Shown here piece by piece: positions 1-27,442 of a stretch of DNA of 64,000 bases. Made by a program: the position numbers and the translations under genes. How positions within the stretch are numbered: the first letter of the stretch is position 1; the number at the start of each line of letters is the position of its first letter. The notes beneath the pieces are model-generated. The model did not search any database, was not told the DNA's origin, and worked only from the letters and a program-made list of their open reading frames with translations. The stretch spans positions 768,001 to 832,000 of the forward strand of contig CP046106.1 in assembly GCA_013343275.1 (NCBI GenBank). The letters are read 5' to 3'. The stretch is from Candidatus Nanohaloarchaea archaeon. GTDB taxonomy: Archaea > Nanohalarchaeota > Nanosalinia > Nanosalinales > Nanosalinaceae.

Positions 1-1159
1 CCATGGAAAGCACCTCATATTCATCTTCCACAGCTTCTGAGGTCAGAACCATCTTCTCGTTCTTGTCCTCAACCTGAATGCTGTCGCGTCTAACATGGTA
101 TGTTGGAACTCTCTCCAGGCCTGAATCAATGTCTGATCCGGCCAGAATAAGGCCTGTCAGACTCCCGGAGTTGTACGGTACGAAGTCGAGGACAGAGTAG
201 TGGCCGTTCGGCTCTCCGGCCAGAGAAGCATCGACTTCAAGGGCCTCGTCCATTACGAAAGGATCTCCAACACGAGTATAGTAAATTTCGTGGCCGTTGC
301 TGCCTACAACATCTTCTACAGCCTGGGATGTATCTATAGAGGCTACTGTTGTTCCGGGAACTTTTTCCGCCATCAAGCAGAAGATTTCGCTCCCGGTGAT
401 AAACTCGCCGTTGTATAACGTTACCCTATCCGCATCCATGTCTGTGGCAATGCCTAGATCTGCGTTCTCCTGTTTCACTCGATCTTCAAGTTCTTCAAGG
501 TTCTCGGGCTTCGGATTTGGAGGATCCTGGTAGGGGTGTTTCTCTTTCTCCTCTGCAATATCTACTACTTCAGCTCCAAGCTCTTCCAGTGCCTCGGCCA
601 GGAAATCTGTGGCTGCACCACCAAGAGAGTCTACAACTATCTTTTTATCGAAGTCTCCGTCGCTGTACTTTTCAGCAGTCTCAATGAGTTCTGTCCGGTA
701 ATGATCTTTCATTGTTTCTGCTATGCTTTCTACAGTTCCTTCCCTGGCTGCAAAATCCTGGTTGCGGAATAAGTCTTTTACAGTATTCAAATCTTCATTT
801 ACAAATCCGTTACCTTCTGGGTAGATCAGCTTGAAACCGTTAAAGTTCAAAGGCATGTGTGAAGAAGTTACCTGGACTGCAACAGCATCTCTCTTCATAC
901 CTGAGAAAGCTGAGTAATCTGTAGGCCCGATGCCTGCGTCAAGAACTTTTACACCTGTAGATAGAAGGCCCTCGATCAATTTTTCCTTTAGAGGGCCTGA
1001 AGTTTCCTTGTTATCCCTGCAGACTACTACTTTGTCGCTAAAATTATTTTTTGCAAATGTTCCTATAGATTTTCCAAGTCTCTCCGCGAATTCTTCGTTC
1101 AGTTCTTCCGGGTATCGGCCGCGGATGTCGTATCTTTTGAAGACTTTCTCCGGCTTCAT
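1..1159 (-). CDS. Phosphomannomutase/phosphoglucomutase (phosphohexomutase family), runs off the window start
   Basis: Not in the ORF track. Manual translation from ATG at 1159 gives MKPEKVFKRYDIRGRYPEELNEEFAERLGKSIG, followed by VTSSHMPLNFNGFK (phosphoserine loop) and ATDMDADR (metal loop). Confidence 0.9.
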   Translation of the reverse strand, partial: MKPEKVFKRYDIRGRYPEELNEEFAERLGKSIGTFAKNNFSDKVVVCRDNKETSGPLKEKLIEGLLSTGVKVLDAGIGPTDYSAFSGMKRDAVAVQVTSSHMPLNFNGFKLIYPEGNGFVNEDLNTVKDLFRNQDFAAREGTVESIAETMKDHYRTELIETAEKYSDGDFDKKIVVDSLGGAATDFLAEALEELGAEVVDIAEEKEKHPYQDPPNPKPENLEELEDRVKQENADLGIATDMDADRVTLYNGEFITGSEIFCLMAEKVPGTTVASIDTSQAVEDVVGSNGHEIYYTRVGDPFVMDEALEVDASLAGEPNGHYSVLDFVPYNSGSLTGLILAGSDIDSGLERVPTYHVRRDSIQVEDKNEKMVLTSEAVEDEYEVLSM

Positions 1160-14093: not shown

Positions 14094-16199
14094 ATGTATA
14101 TGATCGTAGGCGGTTACCAGATCAGCAATATTCTAATCGCGGCCCTTCTTGTATCTTCAGTAGCAGGACTAGGAGTATCGACAGATTCCTTCTCAGGTAT
14201 AACTGATTCAATGTCCAATATACTGCCCACAGGCTCTGTGGATTCTGGCAACCAGACAGATCAGAACAATACCAACAGCCAGGGAGATTCAGATCAAAAT
14301 ACGGGAGGCCAGGACTCTGATCAAAACAACCAAGGTTCGGGAGATGGTTCTTCTGGAGATAATACTGATACAGGCCAAAATACTGGATCAGATAATGATA
14401 CTGGAACCGGAACTCCTACTGACGGCAATAATACGCAGGATGTAGTTAACGAGACAGAACAAACTGTAAACGAGACAACAGGAAACCAGACAGATGGGAC
14501 TGTAACCAATGAGACAGAACAAACTACGGGGGATAATCAGACAACTACTGATGGAAACGAGACCAACACGGATACTTCTGATCATATTAGCTTCTTCGAG
14601 CCGTCAGAAGGCTACGAACTAAATACTTCATCTCTTCCTGCATCTTTCTCCTTGCTAGCTTCTATTAGCGCCTCCAATGCCAGTTACGAAGTTAGAATGG
14701 AGGGTTCCATCCGTTTATCAGGGCAATTAGATGGTGATAAAACGCTGGATAAAAGCTTGCAGGTAGACTCTGAAGGACAGCACACCTTAGATATAATTTT
14801 GTTCAAAGATGGAAGTCAGCTAGCGAAGGAATCTCGAACGTTTACCGTAAACCTTGATGGCAGCTCAACAACCACAACAGGGTTCTACATTCCTGGCAAT
14901 CTAACGGCTGAAGAATATTCTACTCTAACCTTATACGATGAAAACGGAAATACTGTAAGCGGCAAGACAATATATCTTGACGGCAGCAGCATAGGAGAAA
15001 CAGACCAATACGGCCAACTAGAGTTCCTAGTACCTAACAAGCAAGAAATAACACTATCTACAGATTCGAGACAGAAAACATATCAGGTACATAACTACAC
15101 TGATTCAAGTATTGATCTGTCTCTTAGTTTCGCTAAAAAAGTATATCAGGGCAGAACTAACACTCTTACAGTAACAAATAATGGAGCGGCTGTTGAGAGC
15201 GCAGAAGTATACGCTAATGGTGTTCCAAAAGGTTCTACGAACTCTAGTGGTCAAGTCAAGTTCACTATACCAGAAGAAAGCTCGATTACAATTAAAGTAA
15301 ATAAGAATGGATCTTCTGATGATGAGACATTTACAGCAGAAGTACCTCCTATAGATGTGACGTTCTTGAACCCTGATAAAGGAGAGAGTATAGAGGACTA
15401 CAAACTGGAGTTCGACTTCAATGTCGAGCTTACTGAGTCAGGAACTGTAACTTTATCTGTAGAAGGATCACAAGTTCTCCAAAAGAGCTTAGGCGCTGGT
15501 AAGACTAAAATAACAAAAAAGATGGAATTTGTAAATTCTGGGACAAGACAGTACACTGTAACAGTAGACACATCATCCGAAACAAGAACTCATTCGAGAG
15601 AATTCACTACAACGCAAGACATGCCGCCTATAGATATCAATATTACTTCTCCAAATTCAGGTGAATCTATCAGCAACTACAAAACGACTGTTGATTACAG
15701 TATAAGATCTCCAGAAAGCTTCGACTACAAAGTGACTGTAGATGGAAGAGAACTAGTTGATCTAGGTTATCCGGATGGCCAGCTTTCCAAGACAACGCAG
15801 GCTAACTGTCTAGATTCAGGATCACACACTTTGACTGTAGAGGCGACAGGAGATCAGAGAGGAACTACCTACTCCGAATCCGTACAGTTTGACACTACTG
15901 AATCACACCCAATAGCTGACATGGTTATAAGTGGTCCTTCAGAAGGAGAAACGGTCAGTTCGCCGTTCTCGGTTAACTACACTGTCTTCACTTGCACAAG
16001 CATGAGTTTCGAATCAAGAATAGAACAAAGCGGCAGCACAGTCAAGACAGTACAGGGAGGAGGACAAACCCTAGGCGCTTACTCCTACATCAGATCCCCG
16101 ACAACAGAGTACGACCTTAGCTCAGGAAGCTACAGTCTGGTGCTCGAAGCCAATGCTGGAAGCACACTGACAAAATCAAACTCATTCGAGGTGAATTAG
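14094..16199 (+). CDS. Surface protein A1: N-terminal hydrophobic anchor/signal, D/N/T/Q-rich stalk, Ig-like repeats
   Basis: Hydrophobic N-terminus, low-complexity linker, repeated GxT(D/N)xxG beta modules; paralog of 19587-22160. Confidence 0.8.
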   Translation: MYMIVGGYQISNILIAALLVSSVAGLGVSTDSFSGITDSMSNILPTGSVDSGNQTDQNNTNSQGDSDQNTGGQDSDQNNQGSGDGSSGDNTDTGQNTGSDNDTGTGTPTDGNNTQDVVNETEQTVNETTGNQTDGTVTNETEQTTGDNQTTTDGNETNTDTSDHISFFEPSEGYELNTSSLPASFSLLASISASNASYEVRMEGSIRLSGQLDGDKTLDKSLQVDSEGQHTLDIILFKDGSQLAKESRTFTVNLDGSSTTTTGFYIPGNLTAEEYSTLTLYDENGNTVSGKTIYLDGSSIGETDQYGQLEFLVPNKQEITLSTDSRQKTYQVHNYTDSSIDLSLSFAKKVYQGRTNTLTVTNNGAAVESAEVYANGVPKGSTNSSGQVKFTIPEESSITIKVNKNGSSDDETFTAEVPPIDVTFLNPDKGESIEDYKLEFDFNVELTESGTVTLSVEGSQVLQKSLGAGKTKITKKMEFVNSGTRQYTVTVDTSSETRTHSREFTTTQDMPPIDINITSPNSGESISNYKTTVDYSIRSPESFDYKVTVDGRELVDLGYPDGQLSKTTQANCLDSGSHTLTVEATGDQRGTTYSESVQFDTTESHPIADMVISGPSEGETVSSPFSVNYTVFTCTSMSFESRIEQSGSTVKTVQGGGQTLGAYSYIRSPTTEYDLSSGSYSLVLEANAGSTLTKSNSFEVN

Positions 16200-16205
16200 T
16201 TTCCG

Positions 16206-19200
16206 ATGAGCAGTATCAGAAAGTTAAGTATTTTTCTTATTCTTCTGCTTGTTTCTTCATCTCTTGCTTCATCGGCTTTAATTGATAGGGATTCTTGGGA
16301 GTGTACTAATGAGGGCTGGAGCTTCTCTGAGAACACTGGAGACTCTGGAGACTGGGGCTGGAACTCTTGTTCCACTAACTATGTGACCTACGGTAGCTAC
16401 TCTGCTAGAATGGGGTCGATGGTAGGAAGCGGTAGTACTTATGGAGATAGCGTGGCTTCGGGGACATGGGGCCAGATATACAAGACTTTCGACCTCACAA
16501 ATGTTAACCAGATTACTTTCGATATCAGGACTCGATGGAACAGCAGAGCGACTGTAGATGTTATAGTAGGAGGTAACACTCTTTGGAGTAAAGGCGGATG
16601 CGGATATACTTGTACCTATACAGACCAAACTATAGATGTTTCAGGATATTCTGGCAATACACAAATTAAGATAAGACAAACTTCTACTACGTCCAACTAT
16701 GATTACTGGTATGCTGTGGATAACTGGAGAGTACAAGGTAATACTAACTCAGCCCCTTATGCTCCTTCCAGCCCTAACCCAAATAATGGTGCCTCGGATG
16801 TCTCCACTTCTCCCTCCATCTCCGCTTACTATAATGACCCGGATGGAGACTCAGGTACTCTTTACTACTATACTGGGGGAGGCAGTTTTATTGATTCGTG
16901 CGGAGTTTCAGACGGATCTCGCTGTAGTGTAACATATAGTGGAGCAAGTAGTTCTGGTACTACTTATGACTGGTATGCTGTAGCTGATGATGGTTCAGCC
17001 AGTACATCATCTAGCACTTGGAGCTTCACGACCAACTATGCGCCTAGCGCGCCATCGAACCCTTCTCCTAACAACGGGCAGGATACGGTTTCTACTAGCC
17101 CTACTCTTAGTGTAGATGTTAGTGATCCAGATGGAGATAGTATGGATGTAAGGTTCTATGACGGTAATGGGGACTTGATTGGTACTGATACAAGCGTAGG
17201 TAGCGGGTATACTGCATCTGTTACTTGGAGCGGTCTTAGTACGGGTACTACTTATGACTGGTATGCTGTGGCTGATGATGGTCCAGAAACTACTTCATCT
17301 AGTACTTGGAGTTTTACTACAGTCCATAAGCCAAATCAACCGTTTAATCCAGCGCCGTTTGATGGGGAGAATGATGTTTCAACGTCTCATAATCTTTATG
17401 TTGATGTTAGTCATCCTGATGGCCTGAGTATGGATGTAGATTTCTATATAGATGATGGTGGTGGTTTCACATATGTTGGAACAGATACAGGTGTTTCTGA
17501 CGGTGGTAGGGCTTCGATTAACCCTTCGTTAAGTACGGGAGGTGGTTATAATTGGTATGCTGTTGCGAAAGCTCAGGGTCATTCGCGCCAAAGCCCTACA
17601 TGGGGTTTCTCCACAAATGATATTCCTTCAGTAGATAGTGTCTCAAAGACAGATTCATCAAATAACCATGCTTTTAGCAGTGTTACAGCTATGGTCAGAG
17701 ACTCTGATGGACAGGGGGATATCTCTTCTGCAACTTTAACTGTTGATGATGCTGATGGTAATACACAGAGCTATTCAGGAACTATTGATACTTCTGCAGG
17801 AGGATCTAATGAGGCGCGAGTGAGCTTCGGATCTGTTAGCTACTCTGATAATGCTGGGTGGGGAGGAAATGAACAGGTACAGCTAGATGTACAGGTAACA
17901 GATACTCATAGTAGAACGGCAACAGGTTCATCCTTAGCTCGATTCCCTAACCATGCACCTACTATTTCATCTGGCTACAGTTATAGTGATGATGCCCAGA
18001 ACCATGCTTTTACTTTGAGTATTGATGCGCAGGATGTGGATGCAGGAGGTAGCGAAATCACAAGTTGCACTGTATCTCATAATGATGGTGACGGTAATTC
18101 GTACACGAGTAGTGGAAGTCTTGTACAGGCCGAAACTGCCACATGCAGCTTCACCATTTCAGCCAGTTCCTTCACAGGCTATACCAAAGGAGAAGTCATT
18201 AATCATCAGGTAACTTTCACTGATAGGCACGGCGCAACAGTAATCTCGTCTTCAGGACAGCATAGAATCCCTAACAGCGCTCCTACAGCTACTAATCTCC
18301 AGCCTTCTGGTAGTGAAGTGCAGTATGGCCCTACTTTGAATGCTACCTATAATGATGCTGATGGAGATGTAGGTAATCTGACGTTCTACAATACTAGCAG
18401 TGGCAATGTTATTGGCAAGGTTACAGGTCTCTCTCCGGGACAGCAGGGTAGTATGCAGTGGAGTAGTGCAGATACTCCTGGTACAACTTACAACTTCACT
18501 GTAAAAGCGTTCGATGGGGTAAATGCCACGAATACTACTGAGAACTTCACAACTATCTATGAACCGAAGGAGCCTTATGATCCGTGGCCGACGAACCAGT
18601 CGACGGTAGATACTACGACTAGAACGGATGATGAGATAGCTGCAAGTGTTAAGGTTGTACATCCTGATGGACGTGATATGCATGTTCAGTTTGTGAATGC
18701 GTCTAATGATCAGATTATGGAAATTGATTATGGTGTTGCATCAGGTACTAGGGCCAAGATCACCAACATCGGTAACAAGCTACGTGACAAGACAAACACT
18801 ACCTACAACTGGTATGCTGTATCAAAAGATACGGGAACTGGTGAAAAGACTCGTAGCAGCCTCTTCACGTTTGATACTGTCGAAGTCGGTGATGTTATGT
18901 TTGATGTGATGCAGGGCCGTAATGAGAACATGGATATTACCGGTAACTCTGACAATGGTTACCGGAAGATCAAGTTCGAGATCACTTCAACACAGATGGA
19001 TCCTATTCCAAAAGTTACAGTCAATGAGACCTCTACAGGTGATCTGATTAAGTCGTGGACGGATGTTGCTAACAACTCTGTCTTGACTGTTGACCTGGTG
19101 CAGGATGGGGGCCAGGAATGGAACCTGAATACTGACAGTCAGTATCAGTGGTTTGTTGAGGCTAGTGAGGGGCCTAACATCCTTGGTCAGAGCTTGAATT

Positions 19201-19487
19201 ATACGATATACACCTATAACGTAACTCTTGACTGGGATCGTGCGGAGAAGTACTACAATGTCTACCAATACGATATTTACCGCGCTCAGGACACTGGTGG
19301 CAATCTGGTATTCAACTACGGCAGTGGAGATTATGATGTGGTTGGTTCTCTTCCGGAGACCAGCTTCAATGACTCGGGTCCTGGATTGAGTACTGGTACT
19401 TTCTGCTGGAAGGTAGCAGCCTCCAATCCGACAGGTAGTAGCCCGGCAATACCTTCAGGAGAAGGCAACTGTAAGACACTCAACTAA
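16206..19487 (+). CDS. Secreted adhesin-like protein B1: Cys/Trp-rich head, DxDGD Ig/FN3-like repeats, C-terminal FN3
   Basis: Signal peptide, repeated PxDGD...WYAVADDG...WSFTT modules and many N-x-S/T sites; paralog of 22160-26347. Confidence 0.8.
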   Translation: MSSIRKLSIFLILLLVSSSLASSALIDRDSWECTNEGWSFSENTGDSGDWGWNSCSTNYVTYGSYSARMGSMVGSGSTYGDSVASGTWGQIYKTFDLTNVNQITFDIRTRWNSRATVDVIVGGNTLWSKGGCGYTCTYTDQTIDVSGYSGNTQIKIRQTSTTSNYDYWYAVDNWRVQGNTNSAPYAPSSPNPNNGASDVSTSPSISAYYNDPDGDSGTLYYYTGGGSFIDSCGVSDGSRCSVTYSGASSSGTTYDWYAVADDGSASTSSSTWSFTTNYAPSAPSNPSPNNGQDTVSTSPTLSVDVSDPDGDSMDVRFYDGNGDLIGTDTSVGSGYTASVTWSGLSTGTTYDWYAVADDGPETTSSSTWSFTTVHKPNQPFNPAPFDGENDVSTSHNLYVDVSHPDGLSMDVDFYIDDGGGFTYVGTDTGVSDGGRASINPSLSTGGGYNWYAVAKAQGHSRQSPTWGFSTNDIPSVDSVSKTDSSNNHAFSSVTAMVRDSDGQGDISSATLTVDDADGNTQSYSGTIDTSAGGSNEARVSFGSVSYSDNAGWGGNEQVQLDVQVTDTHSRTATGSSLARFPNHAPTISSGYSYSDDAQNHAFTLSIDAQDVDAGGSEITSCTVSHNDGDGNSYTSSGSLVQAETATCSFTISASSFTGYTKGEVINHQVTFTDRHGATVISSSGQHRIPNSAPTATNLQPSGSEVQYGPTLNATYNDADGDVGNLTFYNTSSGNVIGKVTGLSPGQQGSMQWSSADTPGTTYNFTVKAFDGVNATNTTENFTTIYEPKEPYDPWPTNQSTVDTTTRTDDEIAASVKVVHPDGRDMHVQFVNASNDQIMEIDYGVASGTRAKITNIGNKLRDKTNTTYNWYAVSKDTGTGEKTRSSLFTFDTVEVGDVMFDVMQGRNENMDITGNSDNGYRKIKFEITSTQMDPIPKVTVNETSTGDLIKSWTDVANNSVLTVDLVQDGGQEWNLNTDSQYQWFVEASEGPNILGQSLNYTIYTYNVTLDWDRAEKYYNVYQYDIYRAQDTGGNLVFNYGSGDYDVVGSLPETSFNDSGPGLSTGTFCWKVAASNPTGSSPAIPSGEGNCKTLN
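16956..17318 (+). repeat. Near-identical intragenic direct repeat (about 16956-17029 and 17245-17318)
   Basis: GGTACTACTTATGACTGGTATGCTGT(A/G)GCTGATGATGGT...TCATCTAG(C/T)ACTTGGAG occurs twice and encodes GTTYDWYAVADDG...SSTWSFTT. Confidence 0.8.
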
Positions 19488-19586
19488 CTACGCAAACCTC
19501 TCTATTTCTTTGTCCTTATACATGCTGATACCTTGATATTTTGGCCCTAGAAGCCTTATAACTGGATAATTCTCATTCAAAGATAA

Positions 19587-22160
19587 ATGTCGAAAGGTTT
19601 AGTGCTCGGCGGATACCAGATCAGCAACGTACTGATAGCAATCCTTCTAGTGGCCTCAACAACAGGCGCAGGAGTAGCCACCGACTCCTTCTCAGGTATA
19701 ACTGATTCAATGTCCAACATTCTACCATCAAACTCTGTAAGCCCTGATAACAAGACAGATCGGAACAGTACTGGCAATCAAGGAGATACAGGAGGCCAGG
19801 ATTCTGATCAAAACGATCAAGGTTCGGAGGATGGTTCTGGTGATGGTTCCTCAGATAGCTCGGATTCTGATTCTGAAGGATTTCTGGACGATATACTAGG
19901 TGGCGATGAAAAGCAGAAAGATCAGAACTCTGACGGCCAAACTGACAATACAACTGAAAAAAATACAGATACTTCAGATAATGAAACTCAGACTCCTGAT
20001 ACAGGCAATACGACAAATACTACAACTGCGAGTATAGCTTCTATCTCGGACCCTCAACCTGCCCAGTACTTCCCTGCCTACGAGACATCCTCTGTACCTC
20101 TATACGTAGAGTTCTCCGGAGAAGACGCAAACTTTGAGATTTGGCTGGACGGCCAGTCCTATCTTACAGGACAGATCTCAGGTACTAAAACAGTAAATAG
20201 GACGCTAGACCTCTCTACAACAGGCAGTCATGAACTGAAGATAGAGGTCAGACAATCAGGAGAAGTAGTCGATTCTCTTACCAGAACATTCGAAATAGCA
20301 GACTCAGCAATACAGGAAACAGGCTTCGAGAAAACAACCACTGTAAGGACAGGAGCAGAAGCAACCTTCAGACTTCTCTACAATGGAGAACCGGTCTCTG
20401 GAGCAGCAGTATCGATGGGGGGAACACAGGTAGGCCAGACGAATCAGGACGGAGAGATAACAGTCCAGGTACCTTACCAGGACACAATTACATTATCGAC
20501 GGACTACCAGGAGATAGGATCTCAAACATTTAACGTAACGCAAGACATACCGGAACCGACAGTAACCCTTGTAAACCCGGTTGACTCGGAAACATTCGAT
20601 ACTCCAACCAGCCAGCAAAAAGACGTACAGTTCAACGCAACAGTCGATATAGCAGAAGACTCCGGTACAGCATCCCTGATGATCGATGGCTCCGAAGTCT
20701 ACTCGCAACAGCTTTCACAGGGAGAAAATACAATTACTACGACACAGAGCCTAGCAGGAGGAACTCACAACTGGAAGATAGAAGTCGACACGCCGGAATA
20801 CAATGTTTCATCCTCCAGTAGAAGCCTGACAGTCAACGAGGTACAGGTGCAGGACGGTATCTCCCTACAGAACACGCCGCCAACAGTTGGGAACGTCAAC
20901 TACGTAAGGCTCTACAACAACGGAGAACCGGTGACAAACCACGACATAACCATCAACGGCCAGACCTACACAACAAACTCTCAGGGAGAAGCACAGTTTA
21001 CAGTACCGAACGCACAGGAACTAACAATCTCTTCCAGTTCTCCCGATTACCAGAAAACATACACTATAGAAGGATACAACCCAGAGATCAGCATGAGCTT
21101 CTCCTTCTCCAAAACCCTGTACCAGGGCCGACAGAATACCTTGACAGTGACCAGCGACGGAAGCGCAGTTAGCGGTGCAACAATCTACGCCAACGGAAAG
21201 CAAAAAGGCCAGACGGACTCCTCTGGCCAGTTAACATTCACGATACCGGAAGAAGACTCTGTCACAATTAAAGCAGTGAAAGATAATTCCGAGAAAAACA
21301 AGACATACACCGCCCAGATTCCACCGATCGATATTACCTGGTTCGGCCCTGACGACGGTGCCAGTATCAATGATTACAAGACAACCTTCGACTTCTCACT
21401 CGGTCTTCAGAGTTCAGCTACCGCCACCCTGACAGTCGGAGGCCAGCAAAGGCTGCAGAAAAGCCTGAGCTCGGGGACTCACAGCATCACCAAAGAAATC
21501 AAGTTCGAAAACTCGGGAACAAGAGACTACACCCTAGAAGTACAGACAGACGGTAATAGAAGGACGAAGACCGGTAGCTTTACAACTGAGCAGGATATGC
21601 CGCCGATACAGATCAGCATCAGCAACCCATCCAGCGGAGAAACCATCAACGACTACAAAACTACGATTCAGTACGGATTTGACTCTCCAGAAGACTTTAA
21701 CTATACTCTTTCAGTAGATGGACGCCATTTAGATAGTTTAAGTCTTCTATCGGGACAGACCTCTAGGCAAGCGGTAGCTAACTGTTTAACTCAGGGGCAG
21801 CATACTTTAGAGATTGTAGCAAAGGGAGAAAAAACAGGGAAGACTACTAAGACCATACAGTTTACTTCGAGCGTAGCACAGCCTTTGGCTGATATACAAA
21901 TTGATTCGCCTAAGTCATCAGAAACCGTTCAGAATCCTGTCGGCTTTTATTATAAGATTACTGCGTGCCAGGATATAAGCTACGATGTCTCTACTGAAGG
22001 CCAAAATCTTGATTCCGGAAGTCTCAGCGCCTATTCTATAGCACTTTCTCCTCCAGGACTTGAAAAAGATTATTCCTCCTTAGGTAAGCATAATTGGACG
22101 ATTTCAGTAAGTAATGGTTCTCAAACTTTGAAGAAAGAAATAATGTTTAGTGTGGAATAA
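19587..22160 (+). CDS. Surface protein A2, paralog of A1
   Basis: Shares GGYQISN.LIA.LLV, TDSFSGITDSMSNILP, YQGR.NTLTVT and QDMPPI with A1. Confidence 0.8.
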   Translation: MSKGLVLGGYQISNVLIAILLVASTTGAGVATDSFSGITDSMSNILPSNSVSPDNKTDRNSTGNQGDTGGQDSDQNDQGSEDGSGDGSSDSSDSDSEGFLDDILGGDEKQKDQNSDGQTDNTTEKNTDTSDNETQTPDTGNTTNTTTASIASISDPQPAQYFPAYETSSVPLYVEFSGEDANFEIWLDGQSYLTGQISGTKTVNRTLDLSTTGSHELKIEVRQSGEVVDSLTRTFEIADSAIQETGFEKTTTVRTGAEATFRLLYNGEPVSGAAVSMGGTQVGQTNQDGEITVQVPYQDTITLSTDYQEIGSQTFNVTQDIPEPTVTLVNPVDSETFDTPTSQQKDVQFNATVDIAEDSGTASLMIDGSEVYSQQLSQGENTITTTQSLAGGTHNWKIEVDTPEYNVSSSSRSLTVNEVQVQDGISLQNTPPTVGNVNYVRLYNNGEPVTNHDITINGQTYTTNSQGEAQFTVPNAQELTISSSSPDYQKTYTIEGYNPEISMSFSFSKTLYQGRQNTLTVTSDGSAVSGATIYANGKQKGQTDSSGQLTFTIPEEDSVTIKAVKDNSEKNKTYTAQIPPIDITWFGPDDGASINDYKTTFDFSLGLQSSATATLTVGGQQRLQKSLSSGTHSITKEIKFENSGTRDYTLEVQTDGNRRTKTGSFTTEQDMPPIQISISNPSSGETINDYKTTIQYGFDSPEDFNYTLSVDGRHLDSLSLLSGQTSRQAVANCLTQGQHTLEIVAKGEKTGKTTKTIQFTSSVAQPLADIQIDSPKSSETVQNPVGFYYKITACQDISYDVSTEGQNLDSGSLSAYSIALSPPGLEKDYSSLGKHNWTISVSNGSQTLKKEIMFSVE

Positions 22161-25100
22161 TGAGAAAGTATCTTGCTTTGCTCGGTACTCTAGTATTTCT
22201 TCTGCTGAGTATTCCTGCCGCTACTGCTTCTACCGTCACCTGGTCTGATAGTAGCGACTGGAATAACGCTGTTTCAGATTTTGGTGTCGTTCATGAGTCT
22301 GTCACAAATACTGACCACAACGATGCAGGAAAGCTTCAGAAAGGGTATCCGATTCAGAATCCGGTCGTGAGTTATGGCCTCGTTGGATACTGGCCTCTAC
22401 AAGAGGATAGCGGCGATACGGCCTATGATTTTAGCGGATATAACGATGCATCGGCTAGTGCTCCGACTCAAGGCAGTAGCGGTATTTTAGGATCTTCAAG
22501 TTACTACTTTAATACTGAGAGTGCTGACGCATCTACGATAGACCTGGAGTACTATAGCTTTAACGCCTGGATTAATGATGAAGGAAGTACCTATTACGCA
22601 CGAGCGATGAGTAATGGGCGCGATGGTACTGATCCGAGCGCTACCTATGCAATGGGTTCAAGAAACGGATGGCCGACTGCTGTAATGAGGAAGAATGGTA
22701 ATACTTATACTATTGGCTCGGGTCTAAATCCATCAGATTGGACTATGGTGACTGTTACGTATGATGGCGACACGTTAAAAGTTTATACTGATGGTTCTTT
22801 AACCGGATCCAGTACAGCTCCCTCTGGCCCTATAGGCGATGTTACAGGCCCCTTCAACCTTGGATCGACTGAAAGGTATCCTGGAAATGAAGGTATAACA
22901 GGTTATTTACAAGAGGCAAGTTTGTACAACAGGGCACTTTCTGCCTCCGAGATCCAATCTCTATACGAAGTAGCGGCTACACCAGGAACACTCACCACAG
23001 GATGGAAAACATTCTCATCCAACAGAGACATGAACTCTTTACAATTAGAAAATGTGCAGGCCTCTTTGAATGGCGGTAGTATCACTGTTTATGTGGAGAC
23101 TCAGAATGGCGAGGTCAGCGATCCGATTAGTCTGGATGGTAGTGGTGGTCCTTATAGTGTGACGGGGTTGTCGACTGAGGAGGATCAGTTCCGTTTGGAT
23201 ATCAGGTTGGATAATAGTGATGTGACGAGTACGCCTACTTTGTCGGCGATTGATTTGACGGGTAATAAGGCTAATTCTCCTCCTGCTGCTCCTTCGAATG
23301 AGGATCCTGCTGACAATGCTGATCCTGTATCTTTGAGTCCTTCTTTGAGCGTATTTGTCGACGATCCGGATGGCGATAGTATGGATGTTACTTTCTATGT
23401 TGATACGAATAATGATGGGAGTTATGAGACTACGAAGACTAATACAGGTGTTGCGAGTGGCAGTACTACTTCTGTAAGTCTTTCTTCTCTGGCCACTAGC
23501 CAGACAGTTAACTGGTATGTGGTGGCTGATGACGGTAGAGCTACTACTCAGTCAAGTACTTGGAGTTTCACGACTGTAGGTGTTCCAAGTATTACTTCAG
23601 CGCCTTCTCCGAGTGATGGCGCGGTAGATGTTTCCACCTCTAAGAATCTGGCTATTGATGTTTCTCATCCTGATAATCTAGATATGACTGTTGAGTTCTC
23701 TATGGATGGTTCGTATGTAGGCAGTGATACTGTTGCAGGTAGCGGTACTGCTTCTTACAGTCCTTCCCTGGGTTACAGTGAGGATCATTCCTGGAGTGTC
23801 GATGTCTATACGCAGGGTTACTCCACTCAGACGAGCGGAGGCGCCTGGAACTTCCATACCGTGCATGATGTAAGCGCTTCTCTTTCCGGGCCTTCCAAAA
23901 GCCCTGCCAGTATTGATCCTACGTTGAGTGCGACAGTCAGCCACAGTGATTCTGCTGAGACTGTTACTGTGGATTTCGTTAACACAGATAATGGCAACAC
24001 TATTTGCAGTGTTTCCGGTATAGGGAATGCTGAGACTGCTACCTGTGATACTTCTGGAAGCAGTTTCGGTAGTAGCCCCGGTACGACTTATAACTGGGAG
24101 GTCCAGCTTTCGGGTGATGAGGGCTCTGAGTCGTGGACGAGCAGTCAGAGAAGCTTCACCACTATTTCAAATCCTAACGTGAACAGAGTTGAGCCTGGTT
24201 CGAACTCTGGTGTGTCTACAGACCAGAATCTGGTTGTTGATGTCAGTCATCCTGATGGGAAGAATATGAATGTCGAGTTCATGATCAGGAAAGCAGGGCA
24301 GACATCTTTCAGTACAGTAGATACCAAGACAGATGTTTCTGGCCAGGTTTCGGCCAATCCCTCTTTGAGTGACGGCACAAGTTACGAGTGGCGTGTTGAT
24401 GTAAGGACTGTGGGATACAGTACAGACACAATGAGTTCCATTTGGGGCTTTACCACTAACTATGTGCCTTCAGTCTCAGGCATTACCAAGTATGACGCGT
24501 CTGATGGCCACGCTTTCAGGAACGTTTCTGCTATAATCAGCGATCAGGACGGAGATGACACGATCGTTGATGCAAATCTTACAGTAGATAATGACGGTGG
24601 ACTGGAAACTTATGTTGAGTACGATGAAGTTAGTATTGACAGAAGTTATGGAGGAGACGATAATCAGGCCAACGTAACCTTTGGCAGAGTCAATGTTGGG
24701 GATAGTAACTGGGGCCTAACAGGTATAGATCTTCAGGTTGAAGGTATCGATCAGGAGGGTAACGTTGGGTCAAATACACTATCTAATGTCCAGTTCCCTA
24801 ACCATGCTCCGACAGTAGCCTCAGGTTACAGTTACAGCGATAGTCCGCAGGCCCACTCCTACACTTTGAGTATTGATGCCCAGGATGTGGATGATACTGA
24901 TGAAGAGATTGCTTCATGTACAGTCGACCATAACGACGGCGACGGAAACTCCTATACTGGCAAGGCCGGTAGCCTGGCTTCTGGTGAGACTGCTACCTGC
25001 AGCTTCACGATAGACAACAGTACCTCAGGTTACAGGTTCGGTGAGATGATCAACCACAGGGTAACTTTCAAGGATGCACACGGTAAGACTGTGACCTCAA

Positions 25101-26347
25101 CGTGGGCCTCGCACAGAATCCCTAACAGTCTGCCTTCAGCTACGAATTTGAGGCCTGCTAGTGATAATACTTCGTATGACGCGGATTTGAAGGCTACCTA
25201 CAATGATCCTGACGGAGATGTAGGGAACTTGACATTCTACAATACCACTAGCGGTGAAGAGTTGGGTGCTGTGGCTGACCTTGCGCCCGGAGAGCAGGGA
25301 ACTGTTGATTTGGTTGGAGAGTTAGCTCCTGGTACTACTTACAACTTCACTGTGGAGGCCTCGGATGGTGTTAATTCCACTAACAGTACTGAGAACTTCA
25401 CAACTATTTACAGGCCAGATGAGCCTTATGATCCGTTCCCTGAGAATGACACGGTTATAGATACTACTACCAGGAGCGGAGATGATATTGCAGCGAGTGT
25501 AAAGGTTGTACAGGATGATGGGCACACTATGAATGTACAGTTCATTAATGCAAGCGATGATAGCCCTCTAGGTACAGATTATGATGTGGAGTCGGGTACG
25601 CGTGCCAAGTTGACAAGTATTGGTAATACTTTGCGTGATGAGACGAATACTACGTATCGCTGGTATGCTGTAGCTACAGATCAGACGACTGGAGAATCAG
25701 TGAGAAGTGATACGTTCGTCTTCAGGACTCCCGAAGTAGGTGAGGTAAGGTTTGATGTGATGCAGGGGCGTAATGAGAACATGGATATTACTGGTAACTC
25801 TGATAATGGTTATCGGAAGATCAAGTTTGAGGTTACGTCCACGGAAATGGATCCAATCCCAACTGTGATCGTCAATGAGACCGGTACCGGGAATATGATC
25901 AAGTCGTGGAGCAATGTCGCCAACAACTCTGTCCTAACGATAGATTTAGTGCAGGATGGTTCTCAGGACTGGAATCTAGATACGGACGAAAAGTATGAAT
26001 GGACGGTGGAGGCTCGTGATGGCTCTAATATCTTAGGAAACCGTAGCTACGATATCTACACGTACAACGTGACTCTTGACTGGGACAGGGCTGAGAAATA
26101 CTACAATGTCTATCAGTATGATATTTACCGTGCTGAGCAGAGGTCTGGTGTGGATCTGACCTTTAACTATGGGAACGGAGATTACAATCTAGTCGGTTCT
26201 CTTCCAGAGACGAGTTTCAATGACTCGGGGCCGGGCATTGTTCCCGATCATACAGGTACTTTCTGTTGGAAGGTAGCTGCATCCAACCCTACGGGTAGCA
26301 GCCCGGCGATTCCTTCAGGAGAAGGCAACTGCAAAACACTGAACTAA
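22160..26347 (+). CDS. Secreted adhesin-like protein B2 with LamG/concanavalin-like head
   Basis: GLVGYWPL, WTMVTVTYDG.LKVYTDG and LYNRALSASEI (LamG-like); the C-terminal roughly 500 aa is clearly homologous to B1. Confidence 0.82.
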   Translation: MRKYLALLGTLVFLLLSIPAATASTVTWSDSSDWNNAVSDFGVVHESVTNTDHNDAGKLQKGYPIQNPVVSYGLVGYWPLQEDSGDTAYDFSGYNDASASAPTQGSSGILGSSSYYFNTESADASTIDLEYYSFNAWINDEGSTYYARAMSNGRDGTDPSATYAMGSRNGWPTAVMRKNGNTYTIGSGLNPSDWTMVTVTYDGDTLKVYTDGSLTGSSTAPSGPIGDVTGPFNLGSTERYPGNEGITGYLQEASLYNRALSASEIQSLYEVAATPGTLTTGWKTFSSNRDMNSLQLENVQASLNGGSITVYVETQNGEVSDPISLDGSGGPYSVTGLSTEEDQFRLDIRLDNSDVTSTPTLSAIDLTGNKANSPPAAPSNEDPADNADPVSLSPSLSVFVDDPDGDSMDVTFYVDTNNDGSYETTKTNTGVASGSTTSVSLSSLATSQTVNWYVVADDGRATTQSSTWSFTTVGVPSITSAPSPSDGAVDVSTSKNLAIDVSHPDNLDMTVEFSMDGSYVGSDTVAGSGTASYSPSLGYSEDHSWSVDVYTQGYSTQTSGGAWNFHTVHDVSASLSGPSKSPASIDPTLSATVSHSDSAETVTVDFVNTDNGNTICSVSGIGNAETATCDTSGSSFGSSPGTTYNWEVQLSGDEGSESWTSSQRSFTTISNPNVNRVEPGSNSGVSTDQNLVVDVSHPDGKNMNVEFMIRKAGQTSFSTVDTKTDVSGQVSANPSLSDGTSYEWRVDVRTVGYSTDTMSSIWGFTTNYVPSVSGITKYDASDGHAFRNVSAIISDQDGDDTIVDANLTVDNDGGLETYVEYDEVSIDRSYGGDDNQANVTFGRVNVGDSNWGLTGIDLQVEGIDQEGNVGSNTLSNVQFPNHAPTVASGYSYSDSPQAHSYTLSIDAQDVDDTDEEIASCTVDHNDGDGNSYTGKAGSLASGETATCSFTIDNSTSGYRFGEMINHRVTFKDAHGKTVTSTWASHRIPNSLPSATNLRPASDNTSYDADLKATYNDPDGDVGNLTFYNTTSGEELGAVADLAPGEQGTVDLVGELAPGTTYNFTVEASDGVNSTNSTENFTTIYRPDEPYDPFPENDTVIDTTTRSGDDIAASVKVVQDDGHTMNVQFINASDDSPLGTDYDVESGTRAKLTSIGNTLRDETNTTYRWYAVATDQTTGESVRSDTFVFRTPEVGEVRFDVMQGRNENMDITGNSDNGYRKIKFEVTSTEMDPIPTVIVNETGTGNMIKSWSNVANNSVLTIDLVQDGSQDWNLDTDEKYEWTVEARDGSNILGNRSYDIYTYNVTLDWDRAEKYYNVYQYDIYRAEQRSGVDLTFNYGNGDYNLVGSLPETSFNDSGPGIVPDHTGTFCWKVAASNPTGSSPAIPSGEGNCKTLN

Positions 26348-26388
26348 TGGAAACTGTAAAAAACTAGAGTGAGATAAGTGTTGTTATA

Positions 26389-26952
26389 ATGGATTTGAGC
26401 GATATTAATCCGAGTTTCAAGCAGATTGCTGCAGCGATGGCAGTAGTTTTCTTGCTGATTACAGGCCTTAATACTATGCTTGCGCCTGATGGAGGTTATG
26501 CCGGCGATTTAGCCGATACTATTTCCAACAACGATAATTCTAACAACGGGGATGCACAGAACCAGTCTCAGGATCAGACAGATCCTTACTATGAGAAGGC
26601 CACTGATGATTCTACCAGTTCCGACAGCGGCAACAGTGATGGTTCCGGGTCTCTGAATGAGACTGAGAAGACGAAGATCGAGAACAACTTTGAAGGTTAT
26701 GTAAATGCCAGCAACCGTGATAACGGCATCTATCTTGATAGGAAGGCTGTTGCCGGAGAATGGAACAATATTCAGGTGATGTACAATGGTAATCCTGTTG
26801 AAGGTGCCGAAGTGCTGGTGAACGGCCAGAGTATAGGTGCTACTGGAGAATATGGTGGCGTCTACTTCAAGGTTCCACAGGCCGATCGTATAACTGTGAG
26901 GACGACTACTGAAAACCTTGGAACTGTTGAGAATACTTACAAGGTGTACTGA
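26389..26952 (+). CDS. Membrane-anchored protein with a single A-type Ig-like module
   Basis: N-terminal TM segment and acidic linker; YNGNPVEGAEVLVNGQSIGATGEYGGVYFKVP matches modules in A1/A2. Confidence 0.75.
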   Translation: MDLSDINPSFKQIAAAMAVVFLLITGLNTMLAPDGGYAGDLADTISNNDNSNNGDAQNQSQDQTDPYYEKATDDSTSSDSGNSDGSGSLNETEKTKIENNFEGYVNASNRDNGIYLDRKAVAGEWNNIQVMYNGNPVEGAEVLVNGQSIGATGEYGGVYFKVPQADRITVRTTTENLGTVENTYKVY

Positions 26953-26953
26953 T

Positions 26954-27442
26954 TTGAGTAAGTCTCTGGGCCAGTCGGCTATCGAGTACGTGACGACGTA
27001 CGGGTGGATGCTTGTGGCGGTTTCGGTTGCTGCAGGCACTACGTACAGTTTCGTGGATTTCAGCTGTGCCCGGCAGAGTACAGGCTTCTACTCGGAATCC
27101 ATGGCGATAGAGAATTTTGGAGTGACATCTAATGGCACATTAGTTATCTCTGTCAAGAACGATGATTACAACCAGCTGGAGATTACAGGCCTGAATATGT
27201 CCGCTCCTGAGGAGAAAAGATTCAGAAACACGTCTACGGTTATTGAACCAGGTAGTTCCAAGGCTGTAGGGCTACCAGGGTATACTCTTTCTGAACGCTG
27301 CTATGAATACGATGTAACTATGATATACAGCAGAGGGCCTTTGGATGAGCAGAAGCTTAGAGGCACTATAACTGCTCCTATTGCGCCAGGACCTATTCCT
27401 GTTCCTGATGCTCCGGCGAACCTGACTGTAGAGGTAGCTTGA
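26954..27442 (+). CDS. Archaeal type IV pilin-like protein with class III signal peptide
   Basis: TTG start preceded by AAGGTG; MSKSLG/QSAIEYVTTYGWMLVAV matches the (K/R)xGQxxxEY...YGW class III pattern; two Cys. Confidence 0.78.
   Translation: MSKSLGQSAIEYVTTYGWMLVAVSVAAGTTYSFVDFSCARQSTGFYSESMAIENFGVTSNGTLVISVKNDDYNQLEITGLNMSAPEEKRFRNTSTVIEPGSSKAVGLPGYTLSERCYEYDVTMIYSRGPLDEQKLRGTITAPIAPGPIPVPDAPANLTVEVA

What the first reader, a model, noticed from the sequence alone, without database searches (positions are those of the whole stretch)
19215..27442. Apparent split FN3 domain: pilin tail may donate the strand missing from both adhesins
B1 (19215-19487) and B2 (26063-26347) end in an FN3-like domain (VTLDW...YDIYR...VG...TSFND.G...G..CWKVAASN..GSS). 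It begins directly at strand B, immediately after the previous module, and lacks the usual PxAPxNLx first strand. The class III pilin gene closing the locus ends in exactly such a free strand, PVPDAPANLTVEVA* (about 27398-27442), with no domain after it. B1 and B2 have no visible membrane anchor. Inference: donor-strand complementation docks either adhesin onto an archaeal type IV pilus, giving interchangeable tips. The mechanism is established for chaperone-usher pili; I do not know it from archaeal type IV pili.
Basis: partly seen in the sequence, partly recalled or inferred. Interest (0 to 1): 0.8.

Follow-up and report, generated by a model that had tools for sequence, protein, structure and literature searches.

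The report
Split FN3 domain: pilin plugs adhesin
In this tiny salt-loving archaeon, two giant secreted surface proteins end in a fibronectin-type domain that lacks its first strand, and a neighbouring pilin ends in a short tail that looks like that strand, so the pilin probably holds the adhesins by completing their fold.

Summary
B1 (19215-19487) and B2 (26063-26347) end in a domain that AlphaFold2 folds confidently (pLDDT 90) as a six-stranded FN3 with strands B to G. Solved FN3 domains align to it only from about residue 20, so their strand A has no counterpart. The pilin (true start TTG 26954) ends in PVPDAPANLTVEVA*. This is the only frame of 5563 in the genome that ends this way.

The tail is kept in 16 of 20 database homologues. 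Every tailed pilin I inspected lies next to a large secreted protein ending in the same strandless FN3, in 7 genomes of 6 genera plus 2 metagenome contigs. None of 20 tail-less pilin loci does.

A complex prediction scored ipSAE 0.75 against 0.00 for the best control. It lays the tail antiparallel to strand B, where strand A sits in FN3.

Against the reading: five strandless-FN3 proteins in three incomplete genomes have no tailed pilin nearby. The fold is famous, so the prediction may rest on memory. Nothing shows a pilus tip.

Verdict: a probable split-FN3 plug and socket. It is a new variant of beta-strand complementation, with polarity reversed relative to bacterial PilY1-PilK. Confidence about 0.65.

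The parts
14094..16199 (+). A1: 701-aa protein with an N-terminal hydrophobic segment (MYMIVGGYQISNILIAALLVSS), an acidic low-complexity linker and beta-sandwich domains. Paralogue of A2. Its role in the system is unknown.
   Evidence: Translation; hydrophobic segment at the N-terminus only; about 40% identical to A2; only sub-threshold Pfam hits.
16206..19487 (+). B1: 1093-aa Sec-type secreted multidomain protein (putative adhesin) with no other hydrophobic segment.
   Evidence: No Pfam family. The C-terminal 200 aa is conserved at 49-80% identity in 8 other proteins with different N-terminal parts.
19215..19487 (+). B1 socket: FN3-like domain lacking strand A (strands B, C, C', E, F, G, with a Cys pair in F and G). 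It starts directly after the G strand (LNYTIYT) of the preceding domain.
   Evidence: AF2 pLDDT 90 with six strands. Top VIA rows (FN3 domains or modules) reach Z 9.3-10.1 and align from target residue about 20. Register. Interface residues 1-16, 65-80 and 84-89.
19587..22160 (+). A2: 857-aa paralogue of A1 with the same N-terminus (GGYQISNVLIAILLVAS).
   Evidence: Pfam DUF4198, BiPBP_C and other beta-sandwich families, partly over cut-off.
22160..26347 (+). B2: 1395-aa Sec-type secreted multidomain protein with an N-terminal Laminin_G_3 (ConA-like lectin) domain. It is 55% identical to B1 over 935 aa, and the last 32 residues are identical.
   Evidence: (PF13385, E 8e-18).
26063..26347 (+). 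B2 socket: the same strandless FN3-like domain (88% identical to B1's).
26389..26952 (+). Small N-terminally anchored protein (187 aa) with an acidic linker and one beta-sandwich domain. It lies between B and the pilin in this clade only. Role unknown.
   Evidence: Homologues sit in the same position in L007, L009, L010 and L011. It is absent between B and the pilin in G006, G018, G021 and G022.
26954..27442 (+). Type IV pilin-like protein (162 aa). It has a class III-type signal (MSKSLG|QSAIEY), a hydrophobic helix, a small beta domain with a conserved Cys pair (C38, C116), and then a tail.
   Evidence: Two tail-less or fused paralogues lie elsewhere in the genome.
27377..27442 (+). Plug: a Pro-rich linker plus an FN3 strand-A-like tail (PIAPGPIPVPDAPANLTVEVA*). 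P151 is invariant and P154 nearly invariant.
   Evidence: Conservation. Unique in the genome. Modelled antiparallel to strand B (residues 155-160 against domain residues 8-3), with L157 touching W7.

Best explanation
The locus encodes a two-part FN3 domain that acts as a plug and socket.

B1 and B2 are exported by the Sec pathway and have no anchor of their own. Each ends in an FN3 domain made only of strands B to G (the socket).

The last gene of the locus encodes a type IV pilin-like protein. Its globular domain is followed by a Pro-rich linker and the peptide PDAPANLTVEVA (the plug). The plug lies antiparallel to strand B, puts Leu157 into the core against the strand-B tryptophan, and so supplies strand A in trans. 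Either adhesin is thereby tied non-covalently to the pilin.

Through the pilin's N-terminal helix, the adhesin is then tied either to a type IV pilus-like filament or to the membrane.

Shown here, by sequence and prediction: the domain lacks strand A in cis. The tail is conserved and confined to pilins that neighbour such domains. A structure predictor joins the two in the FN3 register.

Inferred: real binding and its stability, processing of the pilin and its incorporation into a filament, a tip location, and use of the same pilin by both B1 and B2.
For: 1. Missing strand. AF2 of the 90-aa domain gives pLDDT 90, pTM 0.81 and six strands. Foldseek's top hits are FN3 (prob 1.00, TM 0.6-0.7, E 5e-3 to 0.1). 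The 50 VIA rows shown (997 chains aligned) are FN3 domains or FN3 modules of larger proteins, with Z 9.3-10.1 and rmsd about 1.9 A over 72-80 residues. Eight single-domain entries align only from residue 19-24. No P-x-x-P A-strand motif lies upstream in 0 of 10 family members, against 21 of 27 canonical relatives.

2. No spare segment in cis. The domain follows the previous G strand with no linker, and only 4 residues follow the last Cys.

3. Tail. 16 of 20 homologues found (24-77% identity range in the alignments) end in P-x-[AP]-P-x-N/S-L/I/F-x-x, followed by 1-5 residues and a stop. It is the only such C-terminus among 5563 frames in the genome. It adds 6.6 bits to a canonical FN3 profile and ranks 14th of 5563.

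4. Linkage. B-type gene, then tailed pilin, is seen in G035 (L007), L009 and L011. It is also seen in G006 (two pairs), G018, G021 (two pairs) and G022, mostly with overlapping stop and start, and in G029 as divergent neighbours. Among the 30 pilin loci, 7 are tailed. Six of these have a strandless-FN3 hit within 1.5 kb and the seventh has such a gene next door. None of 20 tail-less pilins has one.

5. Complex. ipSAE was 0.75 (runs 0.75, 0.73, 0.77) against 0.00 for the best of 3 controls. That mark was reached by 116 of 157 solved complexes and 2 of 215 mismatched pairs. The runs share at least 88% of contacts and the partner's pLDDT is at least 78. My own alignments were used, so these counts hold only roughly. 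The interface is pilin 147-162 with domain residues 1-16, 65-80 and 84-89, in antiparallel register i+j=163. The domain's pLDDT is 85-86 with the pilin and 67-69 with unrelated partners.

6. The variable N-terminal parts on a conserved C-terminal module fit a docking module.

7. Assembly genes exist: a T2SSE ATPase, two T2SSF genes and a tail-less pilin at 617-621 kb.
Against: - AF2 folds the domain alone with high confidence, so it may be stable without a seventh strand.
- Five strandless-FN3 proteins have no pilin or tail-like C-terminus in the fetched stretches (at least 5 kb on the sides not cut by a contig end). These are G055 (three), G019 and G042. The only pilin homologues found in G055 and G019 are tail-less, and none was found in G042. 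These genomes are 88, 82 and 77% complete.
- FN3 is among the best-known folds, so the predictor may simply rebuild it from memory. The tool itself warns of this.
- Thirteen control C-termini complete the FN3 profile as well as the tail does.
- Pfam recognises neither the domain nor the pilin.
- The prepilin peptidase is only a weak candidate (14.5 bits, E 0.023).
- The two-domain module could not be modelled (pLDDT 37.6), so a cis contribution of the preceding domain is excluded by sequence logic only.
- The correlation of pilin and domain distances (Mantel r 0.61; 7 of 5000 permutations reach it) is expected for linked genes and does not show contact.
Confidence: 0.65

Rival explanations
1. 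The six-stranded FN3 variant is complete and stable by itself. The pilin and the B proteins work together, hence the linkage. The pilin tail has another role, for example contacts between pilin subunits in the filament, or a flexible spacer.
For: AF2 folds the domain alone at pLDDT 90. Five strandless-FN3 proteins in G055, G019 and G042 lack any tailed pilin nearby, and the pilins found in G055 and G019 are tail-less. Thirteen unrelated C-termini fit the FN3 profile as well as the tail does.
Against: The tail occurs only in pilins beside such domains: 7 of 7 tailed against 0 of 20 tail-less. It carries the FN3 strand-A motif and ends within a few residues of it in 16 homologues. The complex model places it in the strand-A register at 0.75 against 0.00. 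The domain's pLDDT falls from 85-86 to 67-69 with unrelated partners.
Confidence: 0.17
2. B1 and B2 are held on the cell by the membrane-anchored neighbours (A1, A2 or the small 187-aa protein), and the pilin tail is unrelated to their attachment.
For: Each B gene directly follows an A gene. A-like genes precede B-type genes in G035, in G006 (both pairs) and perhaps in G021:C5. The small protein is conserved between B and the pilin in L007, L009, L010 and L011. All three proteins have an N-terminal hydrophobic segment.
Against: In G018, G022 and G021:C68 the B-type gene follows a translation elongation factor gene and is directly followed by the tailed pilin, with no A-like or small protein between. 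None of these proteins ends in a strand-A-like motif.
Confidence: 0.1
3. The tail is a relic: the start of an FN3 domain that was lost from a once modular pilin. It has no present function.
For: The same archaeal family has many pilins fused to C-terminal domains, in open frames of 360-695 aa. This genome has one, a pilin fused to an FGE-sulfatase-like domain.
Against: The tail's motif, length and stop position are kept in homologues down to 24-37% identity, with P151 invariant and P154 nearly so. None of the 9 modular pilins I read continues from the pilin domain into an FN3 A strand. The next gene starts 36 bases after the stop, so nothing is hidden downstream.
Confidence: 0.03

Closest known systems
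PilC/PilY1 adhesin with PilK/PilX minor pilin: beta-strand complementation at bacterial type IV pilus tips (PMC12918778, abstract and passages read; PMC13711793, abstract read)
   Same: A large adhesin with no anchor of its own is tied to a type IV pilin by a short terminal peptide that adds a strand to the partner's beta-sheet. Two alternative adhesins (PilC1 and PilC2) can use the same pilin complex.
   Different: The polarity is reversed. Here the pilin gives the strand and the adhesin receives it. The receiving fold is an FN3 domain lacking strand A, not a pilin sheet. No PilY1-type domain is found in B1 or B2. The organism is an archaeon. The paper's only mentions of archaea are general, in its introduction.
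Chaperone-usher pili: donor-strand complementation and exchange, e.g. FimH held by FimG (established knowledge; PMC6615685 and PMC1868955 seen as search listings with abstract starts only)
   Same: An incomplete immunoglobulin-like sandwich is completed in trans by a strand from the next subunit. This attaches a tip adhesin without a covalent bond.
   Different: In those pili the missing strand is the C-terminal G strand and the donor is an N-terminal extension. Here the missing strand is the N-terminal A and the donor is a C-terminal tail. No PapD-like chaperone or usher is found in the genome. Export is by Sec plus a type IV pilin pathway.
Archaeal threads, bundling pili, cannulae and Tat-dependent bundling pili, which polymerise by donor-strand complementation (PMC9715654, PMC9245690, PMC12518558, PMC12337348; search listings and abstract starts only)
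   Same: Strand donation between extracellular archaeal proteins without a dedicated chaperone.
   Different: Those are homopolymers of one subunit and, by their titles and abstract starts, are not type IV pilins. Here a single heterotypic joint links a pilin to a giant adhesin.
Modular type IV pilins, e.g. Streptococcus sanguinis PilB with a vWA module (10.1101/2021.01.27.428410, listing and abstract start only), and this family's own fused pilins
   Same: A pilin is used to display an adhesive module.
   Different: There the module is fused in the same chain. Here a module of 1000-2600 aa is a separate Sec-exported protein joined through a split domain.
N-terminal strand swapping in the FN3 consensus scaffold Tencon (PDB 4m6a; title seen)
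   Same: It shows that the FN3 strand A can be supplied by another chain.
   Different: That is an engineered homodimer swap, not a natural two-gene arrangement.

Membership tests
Fibronectin type III fold (the B1/B2 C-terminal domain) | Beta-sandwich with FN3 topology and close structural similarity to solved FN3 domains | tested here: met
   AF2 model at pLDDT 90. The 50 VIA rows shown are FN3 domains or modules, Z 9.3-10.1, rmsd about 1.9 A over 72-80 residues. Foldseek top hits are FN3, prob 1.00.
Fibronectin type III fold (the B1/B2 C-terminal domain) | Seven strands, including an N-terminal strand A in the same chain | tested here: not met
   Six strands in the model. Targets align from residue 19-24. 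No A-strand motif upstream in 0 of 10 family members.
Fibronectin type III fold (the B1/B2 C-terminal domain) | Match to the Pfam fn3 profile (PF00041) or a related family above cut-off | tested here: not met
   No family at E up to 10 for the 101-aa pieces of B1 and B2. No PF00041 match in the genome at E <= 0.001. A family profile does reach canonical FN3 repeats in the large library: 144 hits at E <= 0.001.
Archaeal type IV pilin (the 162-aa protein) | Class III signal peptide: short charged N-terminus, Gly at -1, Gln at +1, then a hydrophobic helix | tested here: met
   MSKSLG|QSAIEYVTTYGWMLVAVSVAAG. G6, Q7, S8, E11 and Y12 are invariant in 23 sequences. The motif definition is recalled.
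Archaeal type IV pilin (the 162-aa protein) | Prepilin peptidase (A24 family) in the genome | tested here: inconclusive
   No match at E <= 0.001. One weak full-length match at 14.5 bits, E 0.023, lies in a 298-aa polytopic protein beside the fused pilin gene. Pfam hmmscan of that protein did not list the family.
Archaeal type IV pilin (the 162-aa protein) | Assembly ATPase and platform protein in the genome | tested here: met
   T2SSE at 617520-618092, with three further matches. Two T2SSF genes lie directly upstream of the tail-less pilin.
Archaeal type IV pilin (the 162-aa protein) | Incorporation into a filament | not testable with these tools
   Needs microscopy or proteomics of sheared filaments.
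Chaperone-usher donor-strand system | Periplasmic PapD-like chaperone and outer-membrane usher | tested here: not met
   PF00345 and PF00577 give no match in the genome, which is 96.5% complete.
Chaperone-usher donor-strand system | Acceptor lacks the C-terminal G strand and the donor is an N-terminal extension | tested here: not met
   Here strand A is missing and the donor is a C-terminal tail.
PilC/PilY1-PilK tip complex | PilY1/PilC-type adhesin whose C-terminal peptide enters a PilK/GspK-family minor pilin | tested here: not met
   No PilC/PilY family appears among the Pfam hits of B1 and B2. In the model the strand comes from the pilin. PilK-family pilins were not searched for.

The most novel reading that the evidence does not exclude
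Nanohaloarchaea carry a general plug-and-socket display system built from a split FN3 domain. A dedicated minor pilin bears strand A as a C-terminal plug. Any Sec-secreted giant adhesin ending in the six-stranded socket can be loaded onto it. This would let one pilus present interchangeable, fast-evolving host-recognition heads: B1 or B2 here, two separate pairs in G006 and G021, and a pilin with what look like tandem plugs in G021. It would be the archaeal counterpart of the bacterial PilY1-PilK joint with polarity reversed, a natural non-covalent tag-and-catcher pair that works in saturated brine.
Probability: 0.4. Interest if true: 0.85.

Novelty: new variant of a known kind. Interest (0 to 1): 0.72.

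Why it matters
All cultivated DPANN archaea live attached to a host cell, and how they hold on is largely unknown. One paper on a cultivated nanohaloarchaeon only suggests that type IV pili may take part (PMC11291902, passages read).

A pilin that captures secreted giant adhesins through a split domain would give a concrete and testable attachment mechanism. It would explain how proteins of 1000-2600 aa with no anchor stay on the cell. It would also point to the variable N-terminal heads, such as the lectin-like domain of B2, as candidates for host recognition.

The finding would extend beta-strand complementation between adhesins and type IV pilins, described for bacteria only in 2026, to archaea and to the opposite polarity. 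A short peptide that completes a small stable domain in high salt could also serve as a protein-tagging tool.

My searches found no paper describing a pilin-borne FN3 strand or a split FN3 in archaeal pili. Subscription journals are not covered by these searches.

Tried and rejected
- **Two-domain model.** AF2 of the C-terminal two-domain module (9 rows) gave pLDDT 37.6 and was unusable.
- **Pfam** gave nothing for the last domain, the preceding domain or the pilin.
- **The search for related loci in genome contigs:** 77 pattern matches, none confirmed.
- **Earlier findings of this scan:** nothing to show.
- **Sequencing runs:** no RNA holder listed.
- **Glycosylation-site reading of the tail** (N-L-T is a sequon): rejected, because homologues have NLNV, NLFV, NLEV, NFNI and SLDA at that place.
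- **C-terminal sorting signal** (PGF-CTERM-like, recalled): rejected, because there is no hydrophobic stretch in the tail.
- **Hidden continuation of the pilin gene:** rejected, because only 36 bases separate it from the next gene, a cytidylate-kinase-like gene.
- **Modular pilins as unsplit ancestors:** none of the 9 that I read runs from the pilin domain into an FN3 A strand.
- **Mantel test** of pilin against domain distances (r 0.61; 7 of 5000 permutations reach it). I keep it as a description of long linkage only, not as evidence of contact.
- **Search for a donor in G055, G019 and G042:** none found in the fetched stretches around the genes, nor with the pilin profile.
- **** failed on a frame slip and was corrected.

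Full report
**The locus**

The window lies in a single-contig genome of 915,886 bases, rated 96.5% complete. One close pilin relative in the databases is labelled Candidatus Nanohaloarchaea.

Between 14094 and 27442, on the + strand, lie six genes:
- A1 (701 aa).
- B1 (1093 aa).
- A2 (857 aa).
- B2 (1395 aa).
- A small protein of 187 aa.
- A pilin-like gene.

Features of these proteins:
- A1, A2 and the small protein each have one hydrophobic segment, at the N-terminus. B1 and B2 have only a Sec-type signal peptide and no other hydrophobic stretch.
- B2 starts with a ConA-like lectin domain (PF13385, E 8e-18).
- B1 and B2 are 55% identical over 935 aa, and their last 32 residues are identical.
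- The pilin's true start is TTG at 26954, giving MSKSLG|QSAIEY followed by a hydrophobic helix.
- The next gene, a cytidylate-kinase-like gene, starts 36 bases after the pilin's stop.

Pfam names no family for the domain. Four lines of evidence show it is FN3 without strand A:

1. A profile of four family members found only three weak PDB sequence matches (E 0.15-1.1). All three are FN3 domains, and the family's VSLDW lies on the strand-B LRLSW at residue 18.
2. The same profile, run over 1.84 billion representatives, found 144 proteins at E <= 0.001. Beyond the close family, those I read are multi-repeat proteins with FN3-type repeats.
   - I read the 27 whose best stretch was long and began at profile position 18 or earlier.
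   - 21 of 27 have P-x(1,2)-P within 26 residues upstream of strand B.
   - Two more (P0156, P0107) have an AP-type A strand by eye.
   - Three (P0092, P0097, P0135) lack it and look like the same strandless C-terminal kind.
   - One (P0173) looks unrelated.
   - In 0 of 10 family members is there such a motif. The upstream stretch is the F-G hairpin of the preceding domain, ending ..F/Y-x-T, and strand B follows with no linker.
3. AlphaFold2 with a 28-row alignment folds the 90 residues at pLDDT 90 and pTM 0.81. The strands are at 3-6, 18-26, 41-46, 50-53, 61-71 and 85-89, that is B, C, C', E, F and G.
4. Foldseek's top hits are FN3 domains (prob 1.00, TM 0.6-0.7, E 5e-3 to 0.1).
   - The 50 VIA rows shown are FN3 domains or FN3 modules, with Z 9.3-10.1 and rmsd about 1.9 A over 72-80 residues.
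   - Eight single-domain entries numbered from 1 align only from residue 19-24. Their strand A therefore has no counterpart.

Only four residues follow the last Cys, so no spare segment exists in cis to fill the gap.

**The tail is a conserved feature, not a remnant**

- Of 20 homologues of the pilin (E <= 0.001 among 110 candidates), 16 end in P-x-[AP]-P-x-N/S-L/I/F-x-x, followed by 1-5 residues and a stop.
- The other four comprise one tail-less protein, one short protein, one that ends at AP on a 997-base contig, and one with a 100-aa extension.
- In the 23-row alignment of tailed pilins, which goes down to 24% identity, P151 is invariant and P154 nearly so.
- In this genome the motif ends 1 of 5563 frames of 60 aa or more. 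There are three pilin-like genes, and only this one has the tail.
- The other two pilin-like genes are a 156-aa pilin beside the T2SSF genes and a 423-aa pilin fused to an FGE-sulfatase-like domain.
- Placed before the domain inside a script, the tail raises the score against a profile of 21 canonical FN3 domains from 55.2 to 61.8 bits. Control C-termini give a mean of 56.5 with sd 1.1, and 13 of 5562 reach 61.8.

**Linkage of tail and socket**

The C-terminal 200 residues of B1 recur at 49-80% identity in 8 other proteins with different N-terminal parts (9 hits including B1 itself, among 617 candidates).

- **Close relatives.**
  - Two of three metagenome contigs carrying the module (L009, L011) show the order: B end, small protein, tailed pilin. 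On the third (L010) the contig ends after the small protein, where the pilin gene would begin.
  - G035 (L007) has the same order.
- **The family (50 genomes).** The pilin profile hit 33 genomes.
  - I followed the matches that reached the tail end of the model.
  - Tailed pilins lie directly after a Sec-signal protein of 473-1571 aa in G006 (two loci), G018, G021 (two loci) and G022.
  - In G029 a tailed pilin lies beside a divergently transcribed 2583-aa protein.
  - Every one of these proteins ends in a domain of the same kind. It starts at strand B straight after ..F-S/T-T or similar, and has a Cys in strand F and another after strand G.
- **The 30 pilin loci given.** A script found a pilin N-terminus in 27.
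  - 7 were tailed. Six had a strandless-FN3 profile hit within 1.5 kb. The seventh, G029, has the gene next door with its 3' end 8 kb away.
  - 20 were tail-less, and none had such a hit.
  - The profile included the positives, so only the negatives are independent.
- **A same-genus genome that lacks both.** G033, a complete genome of the same genus, has neither part.

**Results against a strict pairing**

A profile of ten strandless domains was searched in the 70 genomes of the phylum. It hit 14 genomes at E <= 1e-5.

- Besides the genomes above, it found C-terminal strandless domains in G019 (992 aa), G042 (263 aa) and G055 (three proteins, in another family).
- None has a pilin or a tail-like C-terminus in the fetched stretches, which reach at least 5 kb on the sides not cut by a contig end.
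- The pilin profile found only tail-less pilins in G019 and G055 and nothing in G042.
- These genomes are 82, 77 and 88% complete.
- The hits in G043, G044, G059 and G060 are internal, fragmentary or, in G059, preceded by what looks like an A strand, so I did not count them.
- G034, of the same genus as the window, has tail-bearing pilin fragments with in-frame stops at the very start of a contig, so its neighbour cannot be seen.

**The complex**

ESMFold2 folded the 90-aa domain (28 rows) with pilin residues 30-162 (23 rows).

- ipSAE was 0.75, 0.73 and 0.77 in three runs. The best of 3 controls scored 0.00.
- That mark was reached by 116 of 157 solved complexes and 2 of 215 mismatched pairs. 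These counts hold only roughly because my own alignments were used.
- The runs share at least 88% of contacts, and the partner's pLDDT is at least 78.
- The interface is pilin 147-162 (plus 89-91 and 107-109) with domain residues 1-16, 19, 49, 65-80, 84-87 and 89.
- The best-defined pairs follow i+j=163: domain V3..D8 pairs with pilin E160..A155. This is an antiparallel strand beside strand B.
- L157 touches W7 and residues 65-67 of strand F. P151-P154 lie near residues 69 and 76.
- This is where strand A lies in FN3.
- The domain's own pLDDT was 85-86 with the pilin and 67-69 with unrelated partners.
- The tool warns that pairs resembling solved structures can pass from memory. That applies here, because the two chains together make a textbook fold.

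**How it most likely works**

B1 and B2 cross the membrane by Sec and lose their signal peptide (inferred from the sequence). The pilin is inserted by its N-terminal helix and is probably cut after Gly6. The peptidase is so far only a weak candidate, a 298-aa polytopic protein scoring 14.5 bits.

The tail then completes the socket of either adhesin. An ATPase, two platform genes and a tail-less pilin at 617-621 kb could build a filament.

Whether the loaded pilin enters that filament, caps it, or stays as a membrane stub is open. The roles of A1, A2 and the small protein are also open. The small protein is confined to the close clade. In G018, G022 and G021:C68 there is no A-like gene before B.

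**Comparison with what is known**

- **Bacterial PilC/PilY1-PilK/PilX joint.** This is the nearest system. There the adhesin's C-terminal peptide complements the sheet of a PilK/PilX minor pilin (PMC12918778, abstract and passages; PMC13711793, abstract). Here the polarity is the reverse and the receiving fold is an FN3 lacking strand A.
- **Chaperone-usher pili.** They share the principle, but the missing strand, the donor end and the machinery all differ.
- **Archaeal donor-strand filaments.** Threads, bundling pili and cannulae use strand donation between archaeal surface proteins, but as homopolymers of other families (search listings).

I therefore rate this a new variant of a known kind. 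My five literature searches found no description of it.

**Verdict**

- The strand-donation reading is supported by conservation, linkage and a controlled prediction, but not by experiment.
- The pilus-tip and interchangeable-tip parts remain inference.
- Three genomes show the socket without a visible plug.
- Confidence in tail-to-socket binding is 0.65, and interest is 0.72.

Noticed in passing
L071 1692-2381 (= L081 7809-8444; G021:C5): This tailed pilin has a longer C-terminus holding two near-repeats (..PPNGSFLTTSQIQVDYSQ / ..QPNGSFLTTKPLSVDYSQ) before a final IPSSPSGANIAS*. They may be tandem strand-A-like plugs. Its neighbour is a 473-aa protein ending in a strandless FN3.
   Followed up: partly
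Family-wide; e.g. L083, L084, L085, L086, L019, L026; own genome G000:C1:207259-208542 (L003): The family is rich in pilins fused to large C-terminal modules, in open frames of 360-695 aa. Examples are FGE-sulfatase-like, beta-propeller-like repeat and Ig-like arrays. G003 and G006 have 14-15 pilin matches each.
   Followed up: partly
window 14094-14170 and 19587-19670; L049 7224-7922; L042 15147-16802; L048 973-2598: A-type proteins that precede B genes share an odd N-terminus (GGYQISN, GDYQISN, GQYEID) followed by a hydrophobic helix. It resembles a class III (pilin-type) signal, so the A proteins might themselves be pilin-like.
   Followed up: no
G000:C1:206239-206655 (-), L054 1048-1944: A 298-aa polytopic membrane protein beside the fused pilin gene is the only, weak, Peptidase_A24 match in the genome (14.5 bits, E 0.023). 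It contains FDLDTTDVPD and WGGADAF, which recall the two Asp motifs of prepilin peptidases (the motifs are recalled).
   Followed up: partly
G034:C76:67-458 (L047): A same-genus genome has tail-bearing pilin pieces with in-frame stops (1 TAG, 1 TAA) at the first bases of a contig. This is either a broken copy or an assembly problem.
   Followed up: no
P0097 (658 aa), P0135 (1058 aa), P0092 (229 aa): Three proteins from the representative library end in a domain of the same strandless kind. Two of them have the Cys pair in F and G, so the socket is wider spread than the loci I could inspect. No genomic context was available for them.
   Followed up: no
window 16750-18900 (B1) and 23270-25700 (B2): B1 and B2 contain runs of about 95-aa repeats of the form P-x-P-x-N-G...V-S-T-S-P-x-L-S-V-x-V-x-D-P-D-G-D...Y-x-W-Y-A. 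Pfam names no family for them.
   Followed up: no
L007 and L049 (G035:C3): Several stretches of this relative read N (withheld), including most of its B-type gene. Only the last 47 residues of its socket could be compared.
   Followed up: no
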